From an uncultured Acidimicrobiales bacterium (GTDB lineage: Bacteria > Actinomycetota > Acidimicrobiia > Acidimicrobiales > SHLQ01): 31,159 bases of DNA. The stretch is from the NCBI GenBank assembly GCA_964610745.1, contig CAZSYL010000005.1, positions 1 to 31,159 of the forward strand, written 5' to 3'. The translations under genes were made by a program, and so were the position numbers. Positions 94 through 6,746 of the stretch are shown here, in pieces. Below the pieces are notes generated by a model. That model was not told the origin of the DNA. It saw nothing but the letters and a program-made list of their open reading frames with translations, and ran no database searches. The first letter of the stretch is position 1. Each line of letters opens with the position of its first letter.

Positions 94-774
94 TCAGCTC
101 AGGGCTTGAACAGCGACGTCGGGGACGTTCGTGATGATTCCGCCTACGCCCATCTTCACGAGTTCGACCATGCGCTCGGGGTCGTCGACCGTCCAGACAT
201 TGACATCGAGGTCGGCTTCAGTAGCGGCTTCAATCCAGCGCGGCGTGACTAGTGCATCCCAGGGGTTGATCGCTCCATGGGAGTGAGCGGTCACTCGACC
301 GATCGAGACCTCGGGACCAGTGTCGTCCATTGTGATGAACGCCGTCGGCAGGTGTGGATCAAGGTCTCGAACAGCGTTCACGGCGCCCATATCGAACGAA
401 CTGATGAGGATCTTCTCTGTTGCAAGGTGCTCCCGCGCTGTTCTAATGACGCCGGGGACCATCGTGTGCTCGGGGTCGAAGCTGTCGAGTGCGGGGTCGT
501 TTTTGATCTCGATGTTGACGCCCAGGTCCCCGCACACCGCCAATGCTTCGGCGAGGCTGGGAACGAAATCAGGAAGGTCGGAGAACGCAACATCCTTGAG
601 CCACGTGCCATCCTCTAGCTCCTCGTCGTGGAACACCGCGAGCTGGCCATCGGCGGTTTGTTGTACGTCGAGTTCGACCCAGTCAGCGCCGAGGTCGGCC
701 GCACCGGTGAAGGCTTCGAGTGTGTTCTCTGTGAAAGCTGCCGAGGCACCGCGGTGGCCGATAATTCGCGTCAT
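94..774 (-). CDS. Glycerophosphodiester phosphodiesterase (GDPD/UgpQ family)
   Basis: ORF 94..816(-) contains the N-terminal GDPD signature IIGHRGASAAFTENTLEAF...GADWVELDVQQTADGQLAVFHD. ATG at 774 gives the typical MTRIIGHRG start; an alternative TTG start at 816 would add 14 aa. Confidence 0.8.
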   Translation of the reverse strand: MTRIIGHRGASAAFTENTLEAFTGAADLGADWVELDVQQTADGQLAVFHDEELEDGTWLKDVAFSDLPDFVPSLAEALAVCGDLGVNIEIKNDPALDSFDPEHTMVPGVIRTAREHLATEKILISSFDMGAVNAVRDLDPHLPTAFITMDDTGPEVSIGRVTAHSHGAINPWDALVTPRWIEAATEADLDVNVWTVDDPERMVELVKMGVGGIITNVPDVAVQALS

Positions 775-838
775 GGATCGATGGTACCGATTTGGCTTGG
801 GCGATGTGTGAGACAACGGACCCAGCCCGAGTTAGACA

Positions 839-926
839 GGCGTCACAGCCTGCGCAATTCCGCGTCACAGCCTGCGGAGTATCGCGTCACAGCCTGTGGA
901 GTATCGCGTCACAGCCTGTCTTTTGG
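839..926. promoter_or_regulatory. Four phased copies of motif GCGTCACAGCCTG at 22-bp spacing (units starting about 839, 861, 883, 905) in the divergent GDPD/whiB intergenic region; candidate transcription-factor binding array
   Basis: ggcgtcacagcctgcgcaattc / cgcgtcacagcctgcggagtat / cgcgtcacagcctgtggagtat / cgcgtcacagcctgtcttttgg; copies 2 and 3 are near-perfect 22-mers. Confidence 0.45.
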
Positions 927-1089
927 GTCGAGTTTTCGGACCCGCAAATTACACCGATGTAACACTAAAAGTAGGGATCTCACTACAAAGAGCGAGGAAA
1001 TGCTTGCTACGCAAAGTGCACGGATATACATTCTGCGTAGCGAGTTACGTTCTGGGCATGTTGGGCGGCATGGGCATGGGACTAATTCG

Positions 1090-1431
1090 ATGCGTGGAGG
1101 AAACGTGTCACTTTCAATTGAAGATCCAGCGGTATTCCCAACTCGGGAGTCCATCGAGCCAAAGGTGTGGCGCAGTGATGCGGCATGTCGAGATACCGAT
1201 CCAGATCTCTTCTTCCCGGTTGGACAAACCGGCCCGGCAATCGAGCACATCGAGAACGCCAAGGCCGTTTGTCAGACGTGTGTCGTCAAGATTGAGTGTC
1301 TTGAATACGCGCTGATGACCAACCAGGACGCAGGCATCTGGGGCGGACTCACCGAAGACGACCGTCGCAAGATCCGTCGTGAGCGCCGCAAGGCCAACCG
1401 AGCAGCCCAGGCTGCTGCTCAGCAGAAGTAA
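1090..1431 (+). CDS. whiB: WhiB-family (Wbl) Fe-S transcription factor, WhiB1/WhiB2-like
   Basis: The C-terminal 113 aa of ORF 628..1431 hold four Cys in the WhiB arrangement (AACRDTDPDLFFP...AKAVCQTCVVKIECLEYAL) and the GIWGGLTEDDRRKIRR DNA-binding tail. ATG 1090 (MRGGNVSLSIEDP) or GTG 1105 are plausible starts; the upstream 460 nt of the ORF look non-coding. Confidence 0.85.
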   Translation: MRGGNVSLSIEDPAVFPTRESIEPKVWRSDAACRDTDPDLFFPVGQTGPAIEHIENAKAVCQTCVVKIECLEYALMTNQDAGIWGGLTEDDRRKIRRERRKANRAAQAAAQQK

Positions 1432-2315: not shown

Positions 2316-2662
2316 GCGATCGGGCTGGTTGATTCGCCGAGAATCTCCAGCTGAGCACCAGGTTCGATCTGCCAGTGTCTGAATCGGCCAGCGGTGGTCT
2401 CGATCGCGCACTTCGCACCGAACTCCACCTTCGAGACCCGGTGTTGCGGCATCGTGACGATTCGAAGCACCTTCATCTCGTCATCGCAGAAGGCCACATC
2501 GATCGGGAACCGCATGCCAATGGTGTGCACACTGCGGGTCTTATCAAGAAGGAGCGCTCCGTCGATTCTGTCTCGTCCGAGGAGACCCTTTGTTCGGGAA
2601 CGAACCGAGTCTGCCCGCTCCACCGACGCGAGAACCGTCCCTTCGTGAACCAGCCATGCCAT
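2312..2662 (-). CDS. DUF192 (COG1430) family protein
   Basis: MAWLVHEGTVLASVERADSVRSRTKGLLGRDRIDGALLLDKTRSVHTIGMRFPIDVAFCDDEMKVLRIV matches the DUF192 pattern (GLMGR ... HTxGMxFPIDVxFlD). ATG at 2662 is preferred over the ORF-track start at 2728 (GTG). Confidence 0.7.
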   Translation of the reverse strand: MAWLVHEGTVLASVERADSVRSRTKGLLGRDRIDGALLLDKTRSVHTIGMRFPIDVAFCDDEMKVLRIVTMPQHRVSKVEFGAKCAIETTAGRFRHWQIEPGAQLEILGESTSPIA

Positions 2663-2731
2663 AGCGGCGAGCTTAGGACTTGGACTGGTCAGAGAACGAA
2701 TGGAGCGACCGCCGGTAGGCTCGTGCACCGT

Positions 2732-3805
2732 ATGGAACGATTTGGATTCGTCGGACTTCCTAACGCAGGAAAGTCATCACTATTCAACGCACTCGCTGGC
2801 GGTGGCGCGCTCGCTGCCCCTTACGCGTTTGCCACCACCGACCCCAACGTTGGTGTGGCAAAGGTATTCGACGAGCGGGTCGATGCGCTCTCTGAAATGT
2901 CGGGGTCTCAGAAGCTCATCCATGCCAGTGTGCAGTTCAACGACATCGGTGGCCTCGTAGAGGGAGCAAGCCAGGGCGAAGGTCTGGGCAACAAGTTCCT
3001 CGCCGGAATCCGCGAGGTCGATGCCATCGTGTTTGTGCTTCGAGCGTTCCCCGACGACGACGTCCCCGGTCCAACCGATCCGCTCGAGCATTTGGGTGTC
3101 GTCGAAACCGAACTCGCGCTTGCCGACCTCGACACAGCCGAGAAGCAGCTCGAGAAGGTCGGACGCGCGGCCAGGGTCGACAAGTCCAAGGAGGGCGAGA
3201 CCGCCCTTCTCGAAAAGGTCGTCGAGCTGCTCAGCGATGGCACTCCGCTCTACAAGAGCGCGCTGACCGACGACGAGCGACTCGAACTGAAGCCCTTTTT
3301 CTTCCTGACCAACAAGCCTGTCCTCGCGGTCGTGAACATCGGCGAAGATCAACTCGAAGACGGCGAAGCGCTCGCCGCACCCGTCAGCGAAGCACTCGGT
3401 GGTGCCGAGGTCGTCGCGACGTGTGTCCAGCTCGAAGCCGAGGCGGCACAGCTCGACGACGACGAGCGTGCCGAAATGCTCGAAGGCCTCGGACTGGGCG
3501 AAGGTGCCATGCCTCGATTCATCCGCGCTGCCTACGAACTGATGGGCCTTCGCACGTACCTCACGACCGGCGAGAAGGAAACACGAGCTTGGACGTTCCG
3601 TGCAGGCTCGACGGCACCTCAAGCAGCGGGCGTTATCCACACCGATTTCGAACGAGGCTTCATCCGGGCTGAGACAATCAATTGGAAAGAGCTTGTCGAT
3701 GCGGGTTCGTGGGCAGCTGCTCGTGACAAGGGCCTGGTGCGTTCGGAAGGCAAGGACTACATCGTTGAGGATGGCGACGTGATGGAGTTCCGTTTCAACG
3801 TCTGA
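2732..3805 (+). CDS. ychF: Ribosome-binding ATPase YchF (Obg-family GTPase/ATPase)
   Basis: MERFGFVGLPNAGKSSLFNALAGG (P-loop), then DIGGLVEGASQGEGLGNKFL and a C-terminal TGS domain ending DGDVMEFRFNV; 357 aa from ATG 2732. The upstream part of ORF 2375..3805 overlaps the DUF192 gene and is not coding. Confidence 0.9.
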   Translation: MERFGFVGLPNAGKSSLFNALAGGGALAAPYAFATTDPNVGVAKVFDERVDALSEMSGSQKLIHASVQFNDIGGLVEGASQGEGLGNKFLAGIREVDAIVFVLRAFPDDDVPGPTDPLEHLGVVETELALADLDTAEKQLEKVGRAARVDKSKEGETALLEKVVELLSDGTPLYKSALTDDERLELKPFFFLTNKPVLAVVNIGEDQLEDGEALAAPVSEALGGAEVVATCVQLEAEAAQLDDDERAEMLEGLGLGEGAMPRFIRAAYELMGLRTYLTTGEKETRAWTFRAGSTAPQAAGVIHTDFERGFIRAETINWKELVDAGSWAAARDKGLVRSEGKDYIVEDGDVMEFRFNV

Positions 3806-3819
3806 ACTACGCTGTCGCA

Positions 3820-4833
3820 ATGGCTGAAGCCACGAAAGCCACCGAGGCTCTCAACCGGGCGATCTACTACCTCGACCGGCAGTTCGCGCCCAGGGAGAAG
3901 GTGCGGGCCTTCAAGAATGCCCGCGACGCAATCATCGAAATCGGTCCAGACGAAACTGCGCGTCGAGTCGAAGCGGGAACCATCACGGAGCTCACCGGCA
4001 TAGGTAAGTCCACAGCAGCGGTCATTACTCAGGCCATAGCTGGTGTCGACGACGGGTACCTGCACAAGCTCGACGTTGCGTCTGCGGTCCCCCTCGGTGC
4101 AGGAGCAGAATTGCGCGACAGCTTGAGAGGCGACTGCCATATGCACAGCGTTTGGTCAGATGGCGGCGCCCCGCTAGAAGAGATGGCACGGACCGCTCGA
4201 GAACTGGGTCATGACTATGTCGTCGCGACGGACCATTCGGCTCGACTGACGATCGCGCACGGTCTGAGCGAGGAACGGCTAGAGGCCCAACTCGAACTCC
4301 TCGACGATCTCAACCGCGAGATGACTCCGTTCCGAGTGTTGTCCGGTATGGAGGTCGACATCTTTGAAGACGGCTCACTCGATTTGTCAGACGACATGCT
4401 CGGGCGCCTAGATGTCGTGGTTGCCTCAGTCCATTCCAAGCTTGATCTCGACTCTGAGCTGATGACCCGACGCCTCGTGACCGCAGTCGCCAATCCCCAC
4501 GTCGACATTCTTGGCCACATGACCAACCGCCGCCTCAATGCCTCTGGTCGACCCCCGTCGAAGTTCAACGCCGAAGTCGTTTTCGCGGCATGTAAACAAT
4601 TCAACACCGCAGTCGAAATCAACTGTCGACCCGAGCGCCAAGACCCACCGGAGGAGCTGCTCGAGTTGGCTGTCGAATGGGACTGCTATATCTCGATCGA
4701 CACCGATGCTCACGCTCCCGGACAGCTGGAGTGGCAGGCTTATGGTTGTGACAAGGCAGTCCGCTGCGGAGTCAACCCCGACCGAATCATCAATACCTGG
4801 TCAGCCGACGAACTTCTCGCCTGGACGAACTAA
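3820..4833 (+). CDS. PHP-domain phosphoesterase with N-terminal helix-hairpin-helix (PolX C-terminal-like, no polymerase domain)
   Basis: HhH motif ITELTGIGKSTAAVI; PHP metal-binding motifs GDCHMHSVWSDG, VATDH, GHMTNRRL, SIDTDAH; starts 15 nt after the ychF stop. Confidence 0.8.
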   Translation: MAEATKATEALNRAIYYLDRQFAPREKVRAFKNARDAIIEIGPDETARRVEAGTITELTGIGKSTAAVITQAIAGVDDGYLHKLDVASAVPLGAGAELRDSLRGDCHMHSVWSDGGAPLEEMARTARELGHDYVVATDHSARLTIAHGLSEERLEAQLELLDDLNREMTPFRVLSGMEVDIFEDGSLDLSDDMLGRLDVVVASVHSKLDLDSELMTRRLVTAVANPHVDILGHMTNRRLNASGRPPSKFNAEVVFAACKQFNTAVEINCRPERQDPPEELLELAVEWDCYISIDTDAHAPGQLEWQAYGCDKAVRCGVNPDRIINTWSADELLAWTN

Positions 4834-4917: not shown

Positions 4918-4962
4918 GTAGACGCTACAGGGATCCCGCCCCCTGTAGCGTCTGCCCTTTTT
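4918..4962 (+). terminator. Intrinsic terminator after the PHP-domain gene
   Basis: Perfect 13-bp stem agacgctacaggg/ccctgtagcgtct (4920..4932 / 4941..4953) with 8-nt loop atcccgcc, followed by cccTTTTTgtgg. Confidence 0.7.
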
Positions 4963-5060
4963 GTGGCCATTGCCGGCACATAGCAACCCCGTTGGACGTG
5001 TGCGGGCCGCTCGATAGGAATTGCGCGACTTTCTGCTGATTTCGGCCGTCCTATATCCGT

Positions 5061-5104
5061 AAGCGCTGCAGGTAACCCGCCACCTGCAGCGTTTGCGTAT
5101 TTTT
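5061..5104 (+). terminator. Second terminator-like hairpin, a paralogue of the 4918..4962 hairpin, about 75 nt upstream of the bL37-like gene; possible leader/attenuator or sRNA terminator
   Basis: 13-bp stem aagcgctgcaggt/acctgcagcgttt (one G.U) with 8-nt loop aacccgcc, followed by gcgtaTTTTT; the stem is 9/13 identical to the upstream hairpin and the loop is almost the same. Confidence 0.5.
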
Positions 5105-5177
5105 CAGGCAGCTACACACAGGATTTGTGCAGCGTTGTCGCGCTGTTTTGTTGAGGAAGCGGGATAACCTCATCAGA

Positions 5178-5267
5178 ATGTCGAAGCGCACCCAGAAGAA
5201 AAAGTTGAAGGCTCGTCGCTCGAAGGCCAACCACGGTCGCAAGCCAAACATGGGCCGCAACAGCTAA
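5178..5267 (+). CDS. Small basic ribosomal protein, bL37-like (29 aa), not in the six-frame track
   Basis: Manual translation ATG 5178..TAA 5267 gives MSKRTQKKKLKARRSKANHGRKPNMGRNS. It is extremely basic, and its SKANHG(R/K)(K/R)PN core matches my recollection of the roughly 24-aa mycobacterial ribosomal protein bL37 (MAKRGRKKRDRKHSKANHGKRPNA). Confidence 0.5.
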   Translation: MSKRTQKKKLKARRSKANHGRKPNMGRNS

Positions 5268-5314: not shown

Positions 5315-5455
5315 GTGTCCATAGTTGGAGTCTTTGCTATTGGCCTGATGGTGATCGTTCTCGCGATCGCCATCTTTTCTTTGGTGGTTCTCGCCATCAT
5401 TCCAATTGGTCGTTACCTCGAAAAGCGCAATGAGCGGACCGAAAAGGACGACTAG
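5315..5455 (+). CDS. Hypothetical small single-pass membrane peptide (46 aa from GTG 5315; 35 aa if ATG 5348)
   Basis: Manual translation MSIVGVFAIGLMVIVLAIAIFSLVVLAIIPIGRYLEKRNERTEKDD*: one hydrophobic helix then a charged tail; gagag lies 8 nt upstream of the GTG. No family recognised. Confidence 0.25.
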   Translation: MSIVGVFAIGLMVIVLAIAIFSLVVLAIIPIGRYLEKRNERTEKDD

Positions 5456-5603: not shown

Positions 5604-6746
5604 ATGCGCAGAAACAAGAAACTCATCCTCGCGCTGATTGCAGTGCTGAGCCTGATCGCCGCCGCGTGCGGAAGCTCGGCCGACACTGCCACCGACGCCG
5701 GGAGCGATACCGACGCCGGGAGCGACACCGCTGAAGATGACGCGGTCGAGCCGACAGGTGAAACCGTTGGTCTCGTATATGACATTGGTGGCCGAGGCGA
5801 CCTCTCGTTCAACGACTCAGCAGCTGAAGGACTCGATCGTGCCGAGGCCGAACTCGGCTTTGGGTTCACCGACCTTTCCCCAAACGACGATGGGTCAAAC
5901 CGCGCCGAGCTGCTGCAGCTCTCCGCTGAAGCGAACCCAATCGTGATCGGCGTTGGGTTCCTCTTCGAGGCCGACGCCGCAGCGACCGCCGCAGAGAACC
6001 CGGACACCAACTTCGCGGTCGTCGATTCGTCGATGATCGATTTCAGCCAGGACCCTCCTGCGCCGTATGGTCCGAACGTTGCGGGCCTTGTATTTGCTGA
6101 AGAGCAGGGTTCCTACCTTGTGGGCGTTGCAGCTGCTCTCAAGTCCGAGTCAAACCAGCTCGGCTTCATCGGCGGTGTCAGCGGCATTGGTCTCATCGAG
6201 AAGTTCGAGGCTGGCTTCCGCGCCGGTGCACTCTCGGTCAACCCCGACATCGAGATCGTTGCGGAGTACATCACCGCAGCACCTGACTTCGATGGCTTCA
6301 ACCAGCCAGACCGCGCCCAGGTCATTGCAACCACCATGTACGAAGGTGGAGCCGACATCATCTACCACGCAGCTGGCGGTGCTGGCAACGGCATGTTCCA
6401 GGCAGCAGCAGACTTCACCGATGACAGCGGCAGCAAGGTATGGGGCATCGGCGTTGACTCCGATCAGTTCCAGACCGTCGGCGTCAATAACCCTGAGCTC
6501 CAGGAGTTCATCCTGACCTCGATGCTCAAGCGTGTCGACGTCGCAGTCTTTGAAATTCTTCAGGCTCAGCAGGACGGCGAGTTCGTCGCTGGTCCGACCA
6601 CCTACGACCTCTCGGTCGACGGTGTTGGCTACGCCACCTCCGGCGGATTCGTCGACGACATCATCGACGATATCGAGGCCGCCAAGGCAGCGATCATCGC
6701 TGGTGACGTCACCGTCCCAACGGATCCAACCGAGGTTGGTGGCTGA
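5604..6746 (+). CDS. BMP-family (PnrA/Med-like) ABC transporter substrate-binding lipoprotein, presumed nucleoside-binding
   Basis: Signal peptide with lipobox LIAAAC-G; BMP-family body (VGLVYDIGGRGDLSFND ... GFIGGVSGIGLIEKFEAGF ... KVWGIGVDSDQ); low-complexity TDAGSD linker after the lipidated Cys; SD ggagggg before the ATG. Confidence 0.85.
   Translation: MRRNKKLILALIAVLSLIAAACGSSADTATDAGSDTDAGSDTAEDDAVEPTGETVGLVYDIGGRGDLSFNDSAAEGLDRAEAELGFGFTDLSPNDDGSNRAELLQLSAEANPIVIGVGFLFEADAAATAAENPDTNFAVVDSSMIDFSQDPPAPYGPNVAGLVFAEEQGSYLVGVAAALKSESNQLGFIGGVSGIGLIEKFEAGFRAGALSVNPDIEIVAEYITAAPDFDGFNQPDRAQVIATTMYEGGADIIYHAAGGAGNGMFQAAADFTDDSGSKVWGIGVDSDQFQTVGVNNPELQEFILTSMLKRVDVAVFEILQAQQDGEFVAGPTTYDLSVDGVGYATSGGFVDDIIDDIEAAKAAIIAGDVTVPTDPTEVGG

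What the first reader, a model, noticed from the sequence alone, without database searches (positions are those of the whole stretch)
5178..5267. Unannotated 29-codon gene for a bL37-like small ribosomal protein
Manual translation gives MSKRTQKKKLKARRSKANHGRKPNMGRNS. Its core SKANHG(R)(K)PN matches what I recall of the roughly 24-aa actinobacterial large-subunit protein bL37, identified in mycobacterial ribosome cryo-EM structures. It lies in an AT-richer intergenic island just after a terminator-like hairpin. Genes this short are routinely missed by gene callers, and it is absent from the supplied ORF track.
Basis: partly seen in the sequence, partly recalled or inferred. Interest (0 to 1): 0.6.

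Follow-up and report, generated by a model that had tools for sequence, protein, structure and literature searches.

The report
Small ribosomal protein bL37 gene, Acidimicrobiales

Summary
The ORF at 5178-5267 (+) exists exactly as described. Its only family hit is NCBIfam NF047428 (bL37): E 6e-5, 23.1 bits, under the curated cut-off of 30. Its only matches among solved structures are the bL37 chains of M. smegmatis, M. tuberculosis and C. acnes ribosomes.

The window comes from an Acidimicrobiales bacterium (Actinomycetota). The same ORF is in 61 of 80 related loci. In 50 of them it lies within 1 kb downstream of the same PHP-domain gene.

- It is open in all 60 distinct sequences.
- pN/pS is 0.28 in frame, against 0.56-1.8 in the other five frames.
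- The flanks are no more alike than random sequence (25%).
- The start is the conserved ATG. A TANNNT hexamer lies 7-9 nt upstream in 57 of 62 copies and almost none has a Shine-Dalgarno sequence, so I infer a leaderless mRNA.

It differs from the 24-aa structural bL37 by one extra residue in the helix and a conserved C-terminal x-G-R-N-S tail.

The exact peptide is already in public collections as "hypothetical protein". Proteins 90% identical carry the NCBI name "50S ribosomal protein L37". The literature calls bL37 conserved throughout Actinobacteria.

The parts
5178..5267 (+). 29-codon gene (ATG to TAA) for a bL37-type large-subunit ribosomal protein, MSKRTQKKKLKARRSKANHGRKPNMGRNS, pI 12.0, 3.4 kDa
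   Evidence: Translation. Only NCBIfam hit is NF047428 bL37. Only PDB hits are bL37 chains. Present in 61 of 80 related loci. pN/pS is 0.28 in frame and the frame is open in 60 of 60 distinct sequences. pI and mass.
5165..5170 (+). TAACCT, a -10-like TANNNT hexamer ending 7 nt before the ATG. Inferred promoter of a leaderless (or nearly leaderless) mRNA.
   Evidence: TANNNT ends 7, 8 or 9 nt before the start codon in 57 of 62 copies, against 0-1 of 62 at any offset outside 6-10 nt (61 of 62 fall within 6-10). An SD-like 4-mer is present in only 2 of 62. The function is inferred, not shown.
5058..5107 (+). Terminator-like hairpin (16 bp, loop AACCCGCC) with a T-run, upstream of the bL37 promoter. 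Probably ends the ychF/PHP transcript.
   Evidence: Same hairpin family in the same gap in 11 related loci, with 7 of 13 pairs showing compensatory changes.
4918..4962 (+). Second copy of the same hairpin family (15 bp, loop ATCCCGCC) with a T-run
5129..5154 (+). Short hairpin (7 bp) with TTTTGTTG, just upstream of the -10-like hexamer
   Evidence: Not examined further.
5315..5455 (+). Neighbouring conserved 46-codon ORF (GTG start) for a single-pass membrane peptide. It may be co-transcribed with bL37. It is not part of bL37 itself.
   Evidence: tblastn matches directly downstream of the bL37 ORF in 15 related loci, and a homologous hydrophobic ORF in all 18 of the closest loci that carry bL37. 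No Pfam family.

Best explanation
5178-5267 (+) encodes the Acidimicrobiales orthologue of ribosomal protein bL37.

By homology with the mycobacterial and Cutibacterium structures, I infer the following. The very basic peptide sits in the 23S rRNA pocket formed by H39, H40, the H41/H42 junction, H72 and H89, beneath the tip of 5S rRNA and next to the peptidyl-transferase centre. Its N-terminal helix (about residues 3-17) lies against the H89 backbone. The invariant K-A-N-H-G-R-K-P-N segment forms the C-terminal loop.

This lineage's version has one more residue in the helix and a conserved 4-5 residue tail (x-G-R-N-S, Gly26 and Arg27 invariant). The tail presumably adds an rRNA contact.

The gene stands alone. 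An upstream hairpin terminator insulates it from the ychF/PHP genes. A TANNNT -10 element ends 7 nt before the ATG and there is no Shine-Dalgarno sequence, so I infer a leaderless mRNA.

Shown here: the ORF, its homology, its conservation, its coding selection and the conserved promoter-like signal. Inferred: ribosome binding, the contacts made and leaderless expression.
For: Homology:
- NF047428 bL37 is the only NCBIfam family matched by the window peptide (E 6.1e-5). It is also the only family matched by all 27 distinct relatives tested (best E 1.5e-7).
- The only PDB sequences matched by the peptide or its profile are bL37 chains from 5o60, 7kgb, 6dzi, 7sfr and 8crx.

Taxon:
- The best related loci are all Acidimicrobiales/Acidimicrobiia MAGs.
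- A WhiB-domain gene in the window fits Actinomycetota.
- bL37 is reported only in high-G+C actinobacterial species and as conserved throughout Actinobacteria (PMC5876184; PMC10081302).

Coding signal:
- Codon-position entropy is 0.34/0.32/0.84.
- pN/pS is 0.28 in frame, against 1.5-1.8 or 0.56 in the other five frames.
- Only this frame is open in all 60 distinct sequences.
- Flank identity is 25% against 82% inside the ORF.
- Thirteen residues are invariant, including K16-N24, G26 and R27.

Synteny: 50 of 80 loci have the ORF within 1 kb downstream of the PHP gene on the same strand.

Expression signal: TANNNT lies 7-9 nt upstream in 57 of 62 copies, and an SD-like sequence is present in 2 of 62.

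Structure: AlphaFold2 with the family alignment gives a helix over model residues 4-18 and then coil, pLDDT 84. This matches the 'helical N-terminus plus C-terminal loop' described for M. smegmatis bL37.

Public naming: proteins 90% identical are named 50S ribosomal protein L37 by NCBI.
Against: - The score of 23.1 bits is under the curated NF047428 cut-off of 30.
- E-values against PDB are only 0.008-0.02, because the peptides are so short.
- The local Pfam copy has no matching family.
- Foldseek finds nothing for a 30-residue model.
- No ribosome of any Acidimicrobiia has been solved, so occupancy of the pocket is untested.
- Nineteen of 80 related loci lack the ORF in the stretch fetched. 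Five of those have under 1.3 kb of downstream sequence.
- Only 31 kb of this genome is visible, so a second copy cannot be excluded.
- The helix prediction has little discriminating power for a lysine/arginine-rich peptide.
Confidence: 0.88

Rival explanations
1. The ORF is translated, but the peptide's main role is off the ribosome. It could be a secreted or released cationic antimicrobial peptide, or a general nucleic-acid-binding peptide. On this reading the similarity to bL37 reflects shared ancestry without ribosomal residence in this lineage.
For: C. acnes bL37 inhibited growth of Gram-positive bacteria in disk assays (PMC10085706). Deleting bL37 in M. smegmatis gave no growth or translation defect (PMC10081302). 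A conserved small membrane-peptide ORF follows the gene in the closest relatives.
Against: The residues that are invariant here (KANHG..PN) are the same ones conserved in the forms seen bound inside the 50S subunit. There is no signal peptide and no export or immunity genes adjacent. The extreme conservation across a whole order fits a structural rRNA-binding role.
Confidence: 0.06
2. It is a bL37 paralogue or alternative copy, analogous to the alternative zinc-free ribosomal protein paralogues of mycobacteria. The principal bL37 gene would lie elsewhere in the genome.
For: Only 31 kb of the genome is visible. The peptide scores below the equivalog cut-off. It differs in length from the 24-aa form.
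Against: No 24-aa-type copy was seen in any of the 80 related loci, where at most one bL37-like ORF was found per locus. In the library of 1.84 billion representatives, nearly all of the 150 best relatives stop 3-5 residues after the PN motif (27-29-aa form with an xGR tail), so this is the standard form of a large clade.
Confidence: 0.04
3. The conservation reflects a non-coding RNA or DNA element, or a chance ORF, and no protein is made.
For: The ORF is very short. No Shine-Dalgarno sequence precedes it. It lies among conserved hairpins.
Against: Third-position entropy is 2.5 times that of positions 1 and 2. pN/pS is 0.28 in this frame only, and the frame is open in 60 of 60 sequences while every other frame has stops in 5-12. 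All three stop codons are used, and the peptide length varies by at most two residues (27-29 aa). Rfam finds nothing. The absence of an SD sequence is explained by the conserved -10-like hexamer at leaderless spacing.
Confidence: 0.02

Closest known systems
bL37 of Mycobacterium smegmatis (MSMEG_1916, UniProt A0QTP4; PDB 5o60/5o61/5xym chain 3) and M. tuberculosis (PDB 7kgb chain v)
   Same: It is a tiny, very basic peptide (pI about 12) from an actinobacterium. It aligns end to end with identities M-x-K-R..K-K....S-K-A-N-H-G-[KR]-[KR]-P-N. It has a predicted N-terminal helix and a C-terminal loop. Like the M. tuberculosis gene, it is easily left unannotated.
   Different: It is 29 aa rather than 24. 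It has one extra residue in the helical part and a conserved C-terminal tail M/L/V-G-R-N-S after the P-N where the mycobacterial protein ends with one residue. It has R-K rather than K-R before P-N. It scores 23.1 bits, under the 30-bit cut-off of the mycobacteria-centred model NF047428. Ribosome binding has not been shown.
bL37 of Cutibacterium acnes (PDB 8crx chain V)
   Same: The ANHG-KRPN core matches. It shows that bL37 is present outside Mycobacteriales, contacting H39, H40, H72, H89 and the tip of 5S rRNA (PMC10085706).
   Different: The C. acnes protein is 24 aa and belongs to class Actinomycetes. The window's protein belongs to the deep-branching class Acidimicrobiia and carries the tail.
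NCBI proteins MGA0237700.1 (Acidimicrobiales bacterium MAG) and MFZ4432669.1 (Microthrixaceae bacterium MAG), both named '50S ribosomal protein L37'
   Same: Both are 29 aa and 90% identical to the window peptide, with the same KANHGRKPN-x-GRNS end. They are direct orthologues.
   Different: They differ by three substitutions each. The window's exact sequence is on record only as 'hypothetical protein'.
bS22 (the other small Actinobacteria-specific ribosomal protein, 33 aa)
   Same: It is also a very small, very basic ribosomal protein found in Actinobacteria and often missed in annotation.
   Different: It belongs to a different family and subunit. No bS22 model or chain was matched by the window peptide.

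Membership tests
bL37 (NCBIfam NF047428, ribo_Myco_bL37, equivalog) | Whole-protein score at or above the curated cut-off (30 bits) | tested here: not met
   The score is 23.1 bits, E 6.1e-5, covering model positions 1-23 of 24. All 27 relatives tested match this model and no other, with best E 1.5e-7. The model is named for and centred on the 24-aa mycobacterial form, so this is an annotation threshold rather than a biological criterion. By NCBI's rule the window's protein would not be auto-named from this model.
bL37 (protein family as defined by ribosome structures) | Conserved core S/K-K-A-N-H-G-[KR]-[KR]-P-N preceded by a Lys/Arg-rich N-terminal segment starting M-x-K-R | tested here: met
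   Residues 15-24 (SKANHGRKPN) align to SKANHGKRPN of M. smegmatis and M. tuberculosis and to GANHGKRPN of C. acnes. K16-N24 are invariant in 27 distinct Acidimicrobiales sequences.
bL37 (protein family as defined by ribosome structures) | Very small (24 aa) and highly basic (pI about 12) | tested here: met
   pI is 12.0, with 12 Lys/Arg among 29 residues. The length is 29 rather than 24 aa, because of one inserted residue and a 4-5 residue tail.
bL37 (protein family as defined by ribosome structures) | Restricted to Actinobacteria (Actinomycetota) | tested here: met
   The best related loci are Acidimicrobiales/Acidimicrobiia MAGs. A WhiB-domain gene is in the window.
bL37 (protein family as defined by ribosome structures) | N-terminal alpha-helix of about 13 residues followed by a C-terminal loop | tested here: inconclusive
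   The AlphaFold2 model has a helix at model residues 4-18 and then coil, mean pLDDT 84. This agrees. However, a prediction for a free basic peptide discriminates poorly, and Foldseek against PDB returned nothing.
bL37 (protein family as defined by ribosome structures) | Physically bound in the 23S rRNA pocket of H39/H40/H72/H89 beneath the 5S rRNA tip | not testable with these tools
   This needs 50S proteomics or cryo-EM from an Acidimicrobiia species. No rRNA gene lies in the window (Rfam: no hits), so even the conservation of the pocket could not be examined.
bS22 / Thx / bL36 (other very small basic ribosomal proteins) | Sequence match to the family model or to solved chains | tested here: not met
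   No NCBIfam model other than bL37 matched. One PDB entry labels the M. tuberculosis bL37 sequence 'THX', but the sequence is that of bL37.
Pfam PF26427 | Match to the Pfam model | not testable with these tools
   PF26427.1 is listed as a precomputed domain for many xGR-tailed relatives, but not for the GRNS-type sequences closest to the window. The model is absent from the local Pfam copy, so neither its name nor the window's score could be obtained.

The most novel reading that the evidence does not exclude
Two features may go beyond what is described for the 24-aa bL37.

1. The Acidimicrobiia-type bL37 has an invariant Gly26-Arg27 tail. It could make an rRNA or 5S contact that has no counterpart in solved ribosomes.
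2. A covarying hairpin with an invariant 8-nt loop (A-W-CCCGCC) was found only in the PHP-bL37 gap. It occurs in 1-3 copies and in either orientation. It could be a dedicated cis-element tied to bL37 expression (for example autoregulation or a protein-binding site) rather than a plain terminator.
Probability: 0.12. Interest if true: 0.4.

Novelty: new member of a known kind. Interest (0 to 1): 0.15.

Why it matters
Mostly as an annotation matter.

- bL37 orthologues in Acidimicrobiia score under NCBI's equivalog cut-off. The exact peptide here is on record only as "hypothetical protein".
- Gene callers usually give this family spurious N-terminal extensions, to 32-315 aa.
- The ribosomal protein complement of this abundant, mostly uncultured marine, soil and wastewater lineage is therefore systematically under-reported.
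- The gene confirms that bL37 reaches the deep-branching class Acidimicrobiia, in a slightly longer form. It also offers a clean example of a probable leaderless ribosomal-protein gene.

It does not change what is known about bL37, whose function remains undefined even in mycobacteria.

Tried and rejected
I used the 46-aa reading from the upstream GTG instead.
- Pfam gave nothing for the window peptide, for relatives, or for M. smegmatis bL37. The precomputed family PF26427 is not in the local copy.
- Foldseek of the AlphaFold model against PDB gave no hits, because the peptide is too short.
- Rfam at gathering thresholds found no hits anywhere in the window.
Of these, 119 are chance matches inside coding DNA with no stem extension. 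Only L144 is a true hairpin, again about 94 nt upstream of a bL37 ORF. The scan therefore says little about the hairpin's wider distribution.
- The longer ORF from GTG 5127 was rejected as the real start. The upstream in-frame sequence is unrelated between loci and often interrupted.
- A Shine-Dalgarno reading of GAGGAAG at 5153-5159 was rejected. It lies 18 nt (its G-rich core about 20 nt) from the ATG and is not conserved.
- A leader-peptide or attenuator reading was rejected. The downstream genes are a small membrane peptide and a Bmp-type ABC transporter with its own SD sequence, and the peptide sequence itself is under selection.
- The look-up of encoding contigs could not be used, because it needs at least 30 residues.

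Full report

- The mechanical ORF list shows the frame as 5127-5267 from an upstream GTG.
- The ORF lies in a 770-nt gap. Upstream is a PHP-domain gene (3820-4833), itself preceded by ychF (2375-3805) and by rsmI on the other strand. Downstream is a Bmp-family ABC substrate-binding gene starting at 5604.
- The gap has 54.5% GC against 59.8% for the window.
- Terminator-like hairpins with T-runs lie at 4918-4955, 5058-5097 and 5129-5146.

All the descriptive statements in the finding are therefore correct.

**Is it bL37?**

- Against NCBIfam, the peptide hits one model only: NF047428 '50S ribosomal protein bL37', E 6.1e-5, 23.1 bits, model positions 1-23 of 24. This is under the curated cut-off of 30 bits.
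- Against 177,635 distinct PDB sequences, the only five matches are bL37 chains of M. smegmatis, M. tuberculosis and C. acnes ribosomes. The alignment runs end to end and the SKANHG..PN core is identical.
- A profile of 27 distinct relatives gives the same five hits and nothing else, E 0.008-0.29.
- All 27 relatives hit NF047428 and no other family, best E 1.5e-7.
- The window has 450 ORFs of 20 aa or more, so the expected number of chance hits at this E-value is 0.03.
- An AlphaFold2 model built with the family alignment has a helix over model residues 4-18 followed by coil, pLDDT 84. This agrees with the 'helical N-terminus of about 13 residues plus C-terminal loop' of M. smegmatis bL37 (PMC5876184). 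It is weak evidence, and Foldseek found nothing for so short a model.

**Where the window comes from.** The PHP-domain protein retrieved 80 loci from one-genome-per-species contigs. The best are 60-78% identical, and nearly all are Acidimicrobiales/Acidimicrobiia MAGs. A WhiB-domain gene at 628-1431 fits Actinomycetota. bL37 is reported to occur only in high-G+C actinobacterial species (PMC5876184) and to be 'conserved throughout the Actinobacteria' (PMC10081302). The taxon is therefore within the family's known range.

**Conservation and coding signal.**

- A bL37-like ORF is present in 61 of the 80 loci. In 50 it lies within 1 kb downstream of the PHP gene on the same strand (median 135 nt). 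In 8 it lies further away, and in 3 it is on the other strand.
- Of the 19 loci without it, 5 have under 1.3 kb of downstream sequence.
- Sixty-one of 62 copies start with ATG at the M of MSKRT. In-frame sequence upstream of that M is unrelated between loci. All three stop codons are used, and lengths are 27-29 aa.
- Thirteen positions are invariant: M1, R13, K16-N24, G26, R27.
- Among 60 distinct nucleotide sequences, the entropy at codon positions 1/2/3 is 0.34/0.32/0.84.
- pN/pS is 0.28 in this frame, 1.5-1.8 in four other frames, and 0.56 in the antisense frame that shares third positions.
- Only this frame is open in all 60 sequences.
- Ungapped identity to the window is 82% inside the ORF and 25% on either side.

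This is a translated gene under purifying selection.

**Expression signals.**

- A TANNNT hexamer (TAACCT at 5165-5170 in the window) ends 7, 8 or 9 nt before the start codon in 57 of 62 copies. At any offset outside 6-10 nt the count is 0 or 1; 61 of 62 fall within 6-10 nt.
- An SD-like 4-mer occurs between -18 and -5 in only 2 of 62 copies.
- The Bmp gene downstream has a clear GGAGG sequence 8 nt before its ATG.
- The simplest reading is a stand-alone promoter giving a leaderless or nearly leaderless mRNA. Such mRNAs are common in Actinobacteria; about one third of mycobacterial mRNAs are leaderless (PMC10081302). This is an inference and no transcript data were available.

**How this version differs.**

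- Relative to the 24-aa structural bL37, it has one more residue in the helical part and a tail x-G-R-N-S after P-N.
- A profile search of 1.84 billion representative proteins found 209 relatives at E up to 0.001.
- Among the 181 proteins fetched to that point (the 150 best of these plus earlier hits), nearly all that carry the core motif end 3-5 residues after P-N with an xGR... tail. The tailed 27-29-aa form is therefore the norm for a large clade.
- Most of these are called with spurious N-terminal extensions, because gene callers chose upstream starts.
- A word-indexed search found 2,754 relatives. Named ones are 'hypothetical protein' from Acidimicrobiia or Actinomycetota MAGs. Many carry a precomputed Pfam PF26427.1 hit, which I could not identify because the model is not in the local Pfam copy.

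**Already on record?** The exact 29-aa sequence is in the public collection on 10 contigs as 'hypothetical protein'. Sequences 90% identical are named 'MAG: 50S ribosomal protein L37' by NCBI: MGA0237700.1 (Acidimicrobiales bacterium) and MFZ4432669.1 (Microthrixaceae bacterium). No paper in the searchable library discusses bL37 in Acidimicrobiia. The one co-occurrence concerns bS22.

**Mechanism.**

- In solved ribosomes, bL37 lies in a pocket formed by H39, H40, the H41/H42 junction, H72 and H89, under the tip of 5S rRNA near the peptidyl-transferase centre. Its N-terminus lies on the H89 backbone.
- I infer the same placement here, with the extra tail adding a contact.
- Its physiological role is undefined even in M. 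smegmatis, where deletion gave no growth or global translation phenotype.

**Rivals.** All three were considered and judged unlikely for the reasons given in their entries:

- a non-ribosomal cationic peptide;
- a second, alternative copy of bL37;
- non-coding conservation.

**Verdict.** This is an orthologue of a known family within its known phylum. It is already named in some sister genomes, though it falls under the automatic naming threshold. That makes it a new member of a known kind, of low interest (0.15).

Side observations are listed separately: a hairpin family with an invariant loop confined to this gap, and a conserved small membrane-peptide ORF just downstream.

Noticed in passing
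window 4918-4955 and 5058-5097 (+); L001, L003-L007, L011-L014, L017 between the PHP gene and the bL37 ORF; L144: A family of long hairpins (13-19 bp), each followed by a T-run. The stems covary: 7 of 13 pairs show compensatory changes. The 8-nt loop A-[A/T]-CCCGCC is invariant. In the roughly 0.85 Mb of related loci held, every long copy lies in the PHP-bL37 gap. There are 1-3 copies per locus, and the hairpin is inverted in L007 and L013. Rfam has no match. Why a terminator-like hairpin should keep an invariant loop is unexplained.
   Followed up: partly
window 5315-5455 (+): An unannotated 46-codon ORF with a GTG start encodes a single-pass membrane peptide, VSIVGVFAIGLMVIVLAIAIFSLVVLAIIPIGRYLEKRNERTEKDD. 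It is conserved directly downstream of the bL37 ORF in the window and in all 18 of the closest loci that carry bL37 (tblastn E 1e-6 to 1e-14 in 15 of them). It is absent in more distant loci. It has no Pfam family.
   Followed up: partly
proteins P0035-P0181 (relatives from public collections): Most public gene calls for this family are over-extended at the N-terminus (32-315 aa). The bL37 match sits at the extreme C-terminus, so the family is both missed and mis-started by gene callers.
   Followed up: partly
L023-L078, downstream of the bL37 ORF: In the more distant Acidimicrobiales loci, the gene after bL37 encodes a protein with a DGDCGFC motif (thiol-disulfide oxidoreductase-like) instead of the small membrane peptide.
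   Followed up: no
L019 and L020 (bL37 ATG 12 nt after the PHP stop codon): In these loci the -10-like TAACCT/TAAGCT hexamer sits at or overlaps the end of the PHP gene. The bL37 promoter signal is thus kept even when the intergenic gap is almost gone.
   Followed up: no
L008, L017, L026, L049 (record titles): MAGs labelled Chthoniobacterales, Verrucomicrobiales, Gammaproteobacteria and Acidobacteria carry this Acidimicrobiales-type locus, with a PHP protein 65-72% identical. L017, L026 and L049 also carry the bL37 ORF. This suggests mis-binned contigs or mislabelled bins.
   Followed up: no
window 628-1431 (+): The WhiB domain sits at residues 181-248 of a 267-aa ORF, much longer than typical WhiB proteins. 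The GTG start may be over-called, or this may be an N-terminally extended WhiB-like protein.
   Followed up: no
relatives listed: A precomputed Pfam accession, PF26427.1, is attached to many xGR-tailed bL37-like proteins but not to the GRNS-type ones closest to the window. The model is missing from the local Pfam copy, so its identity is unknown here.
   Followed up: partly
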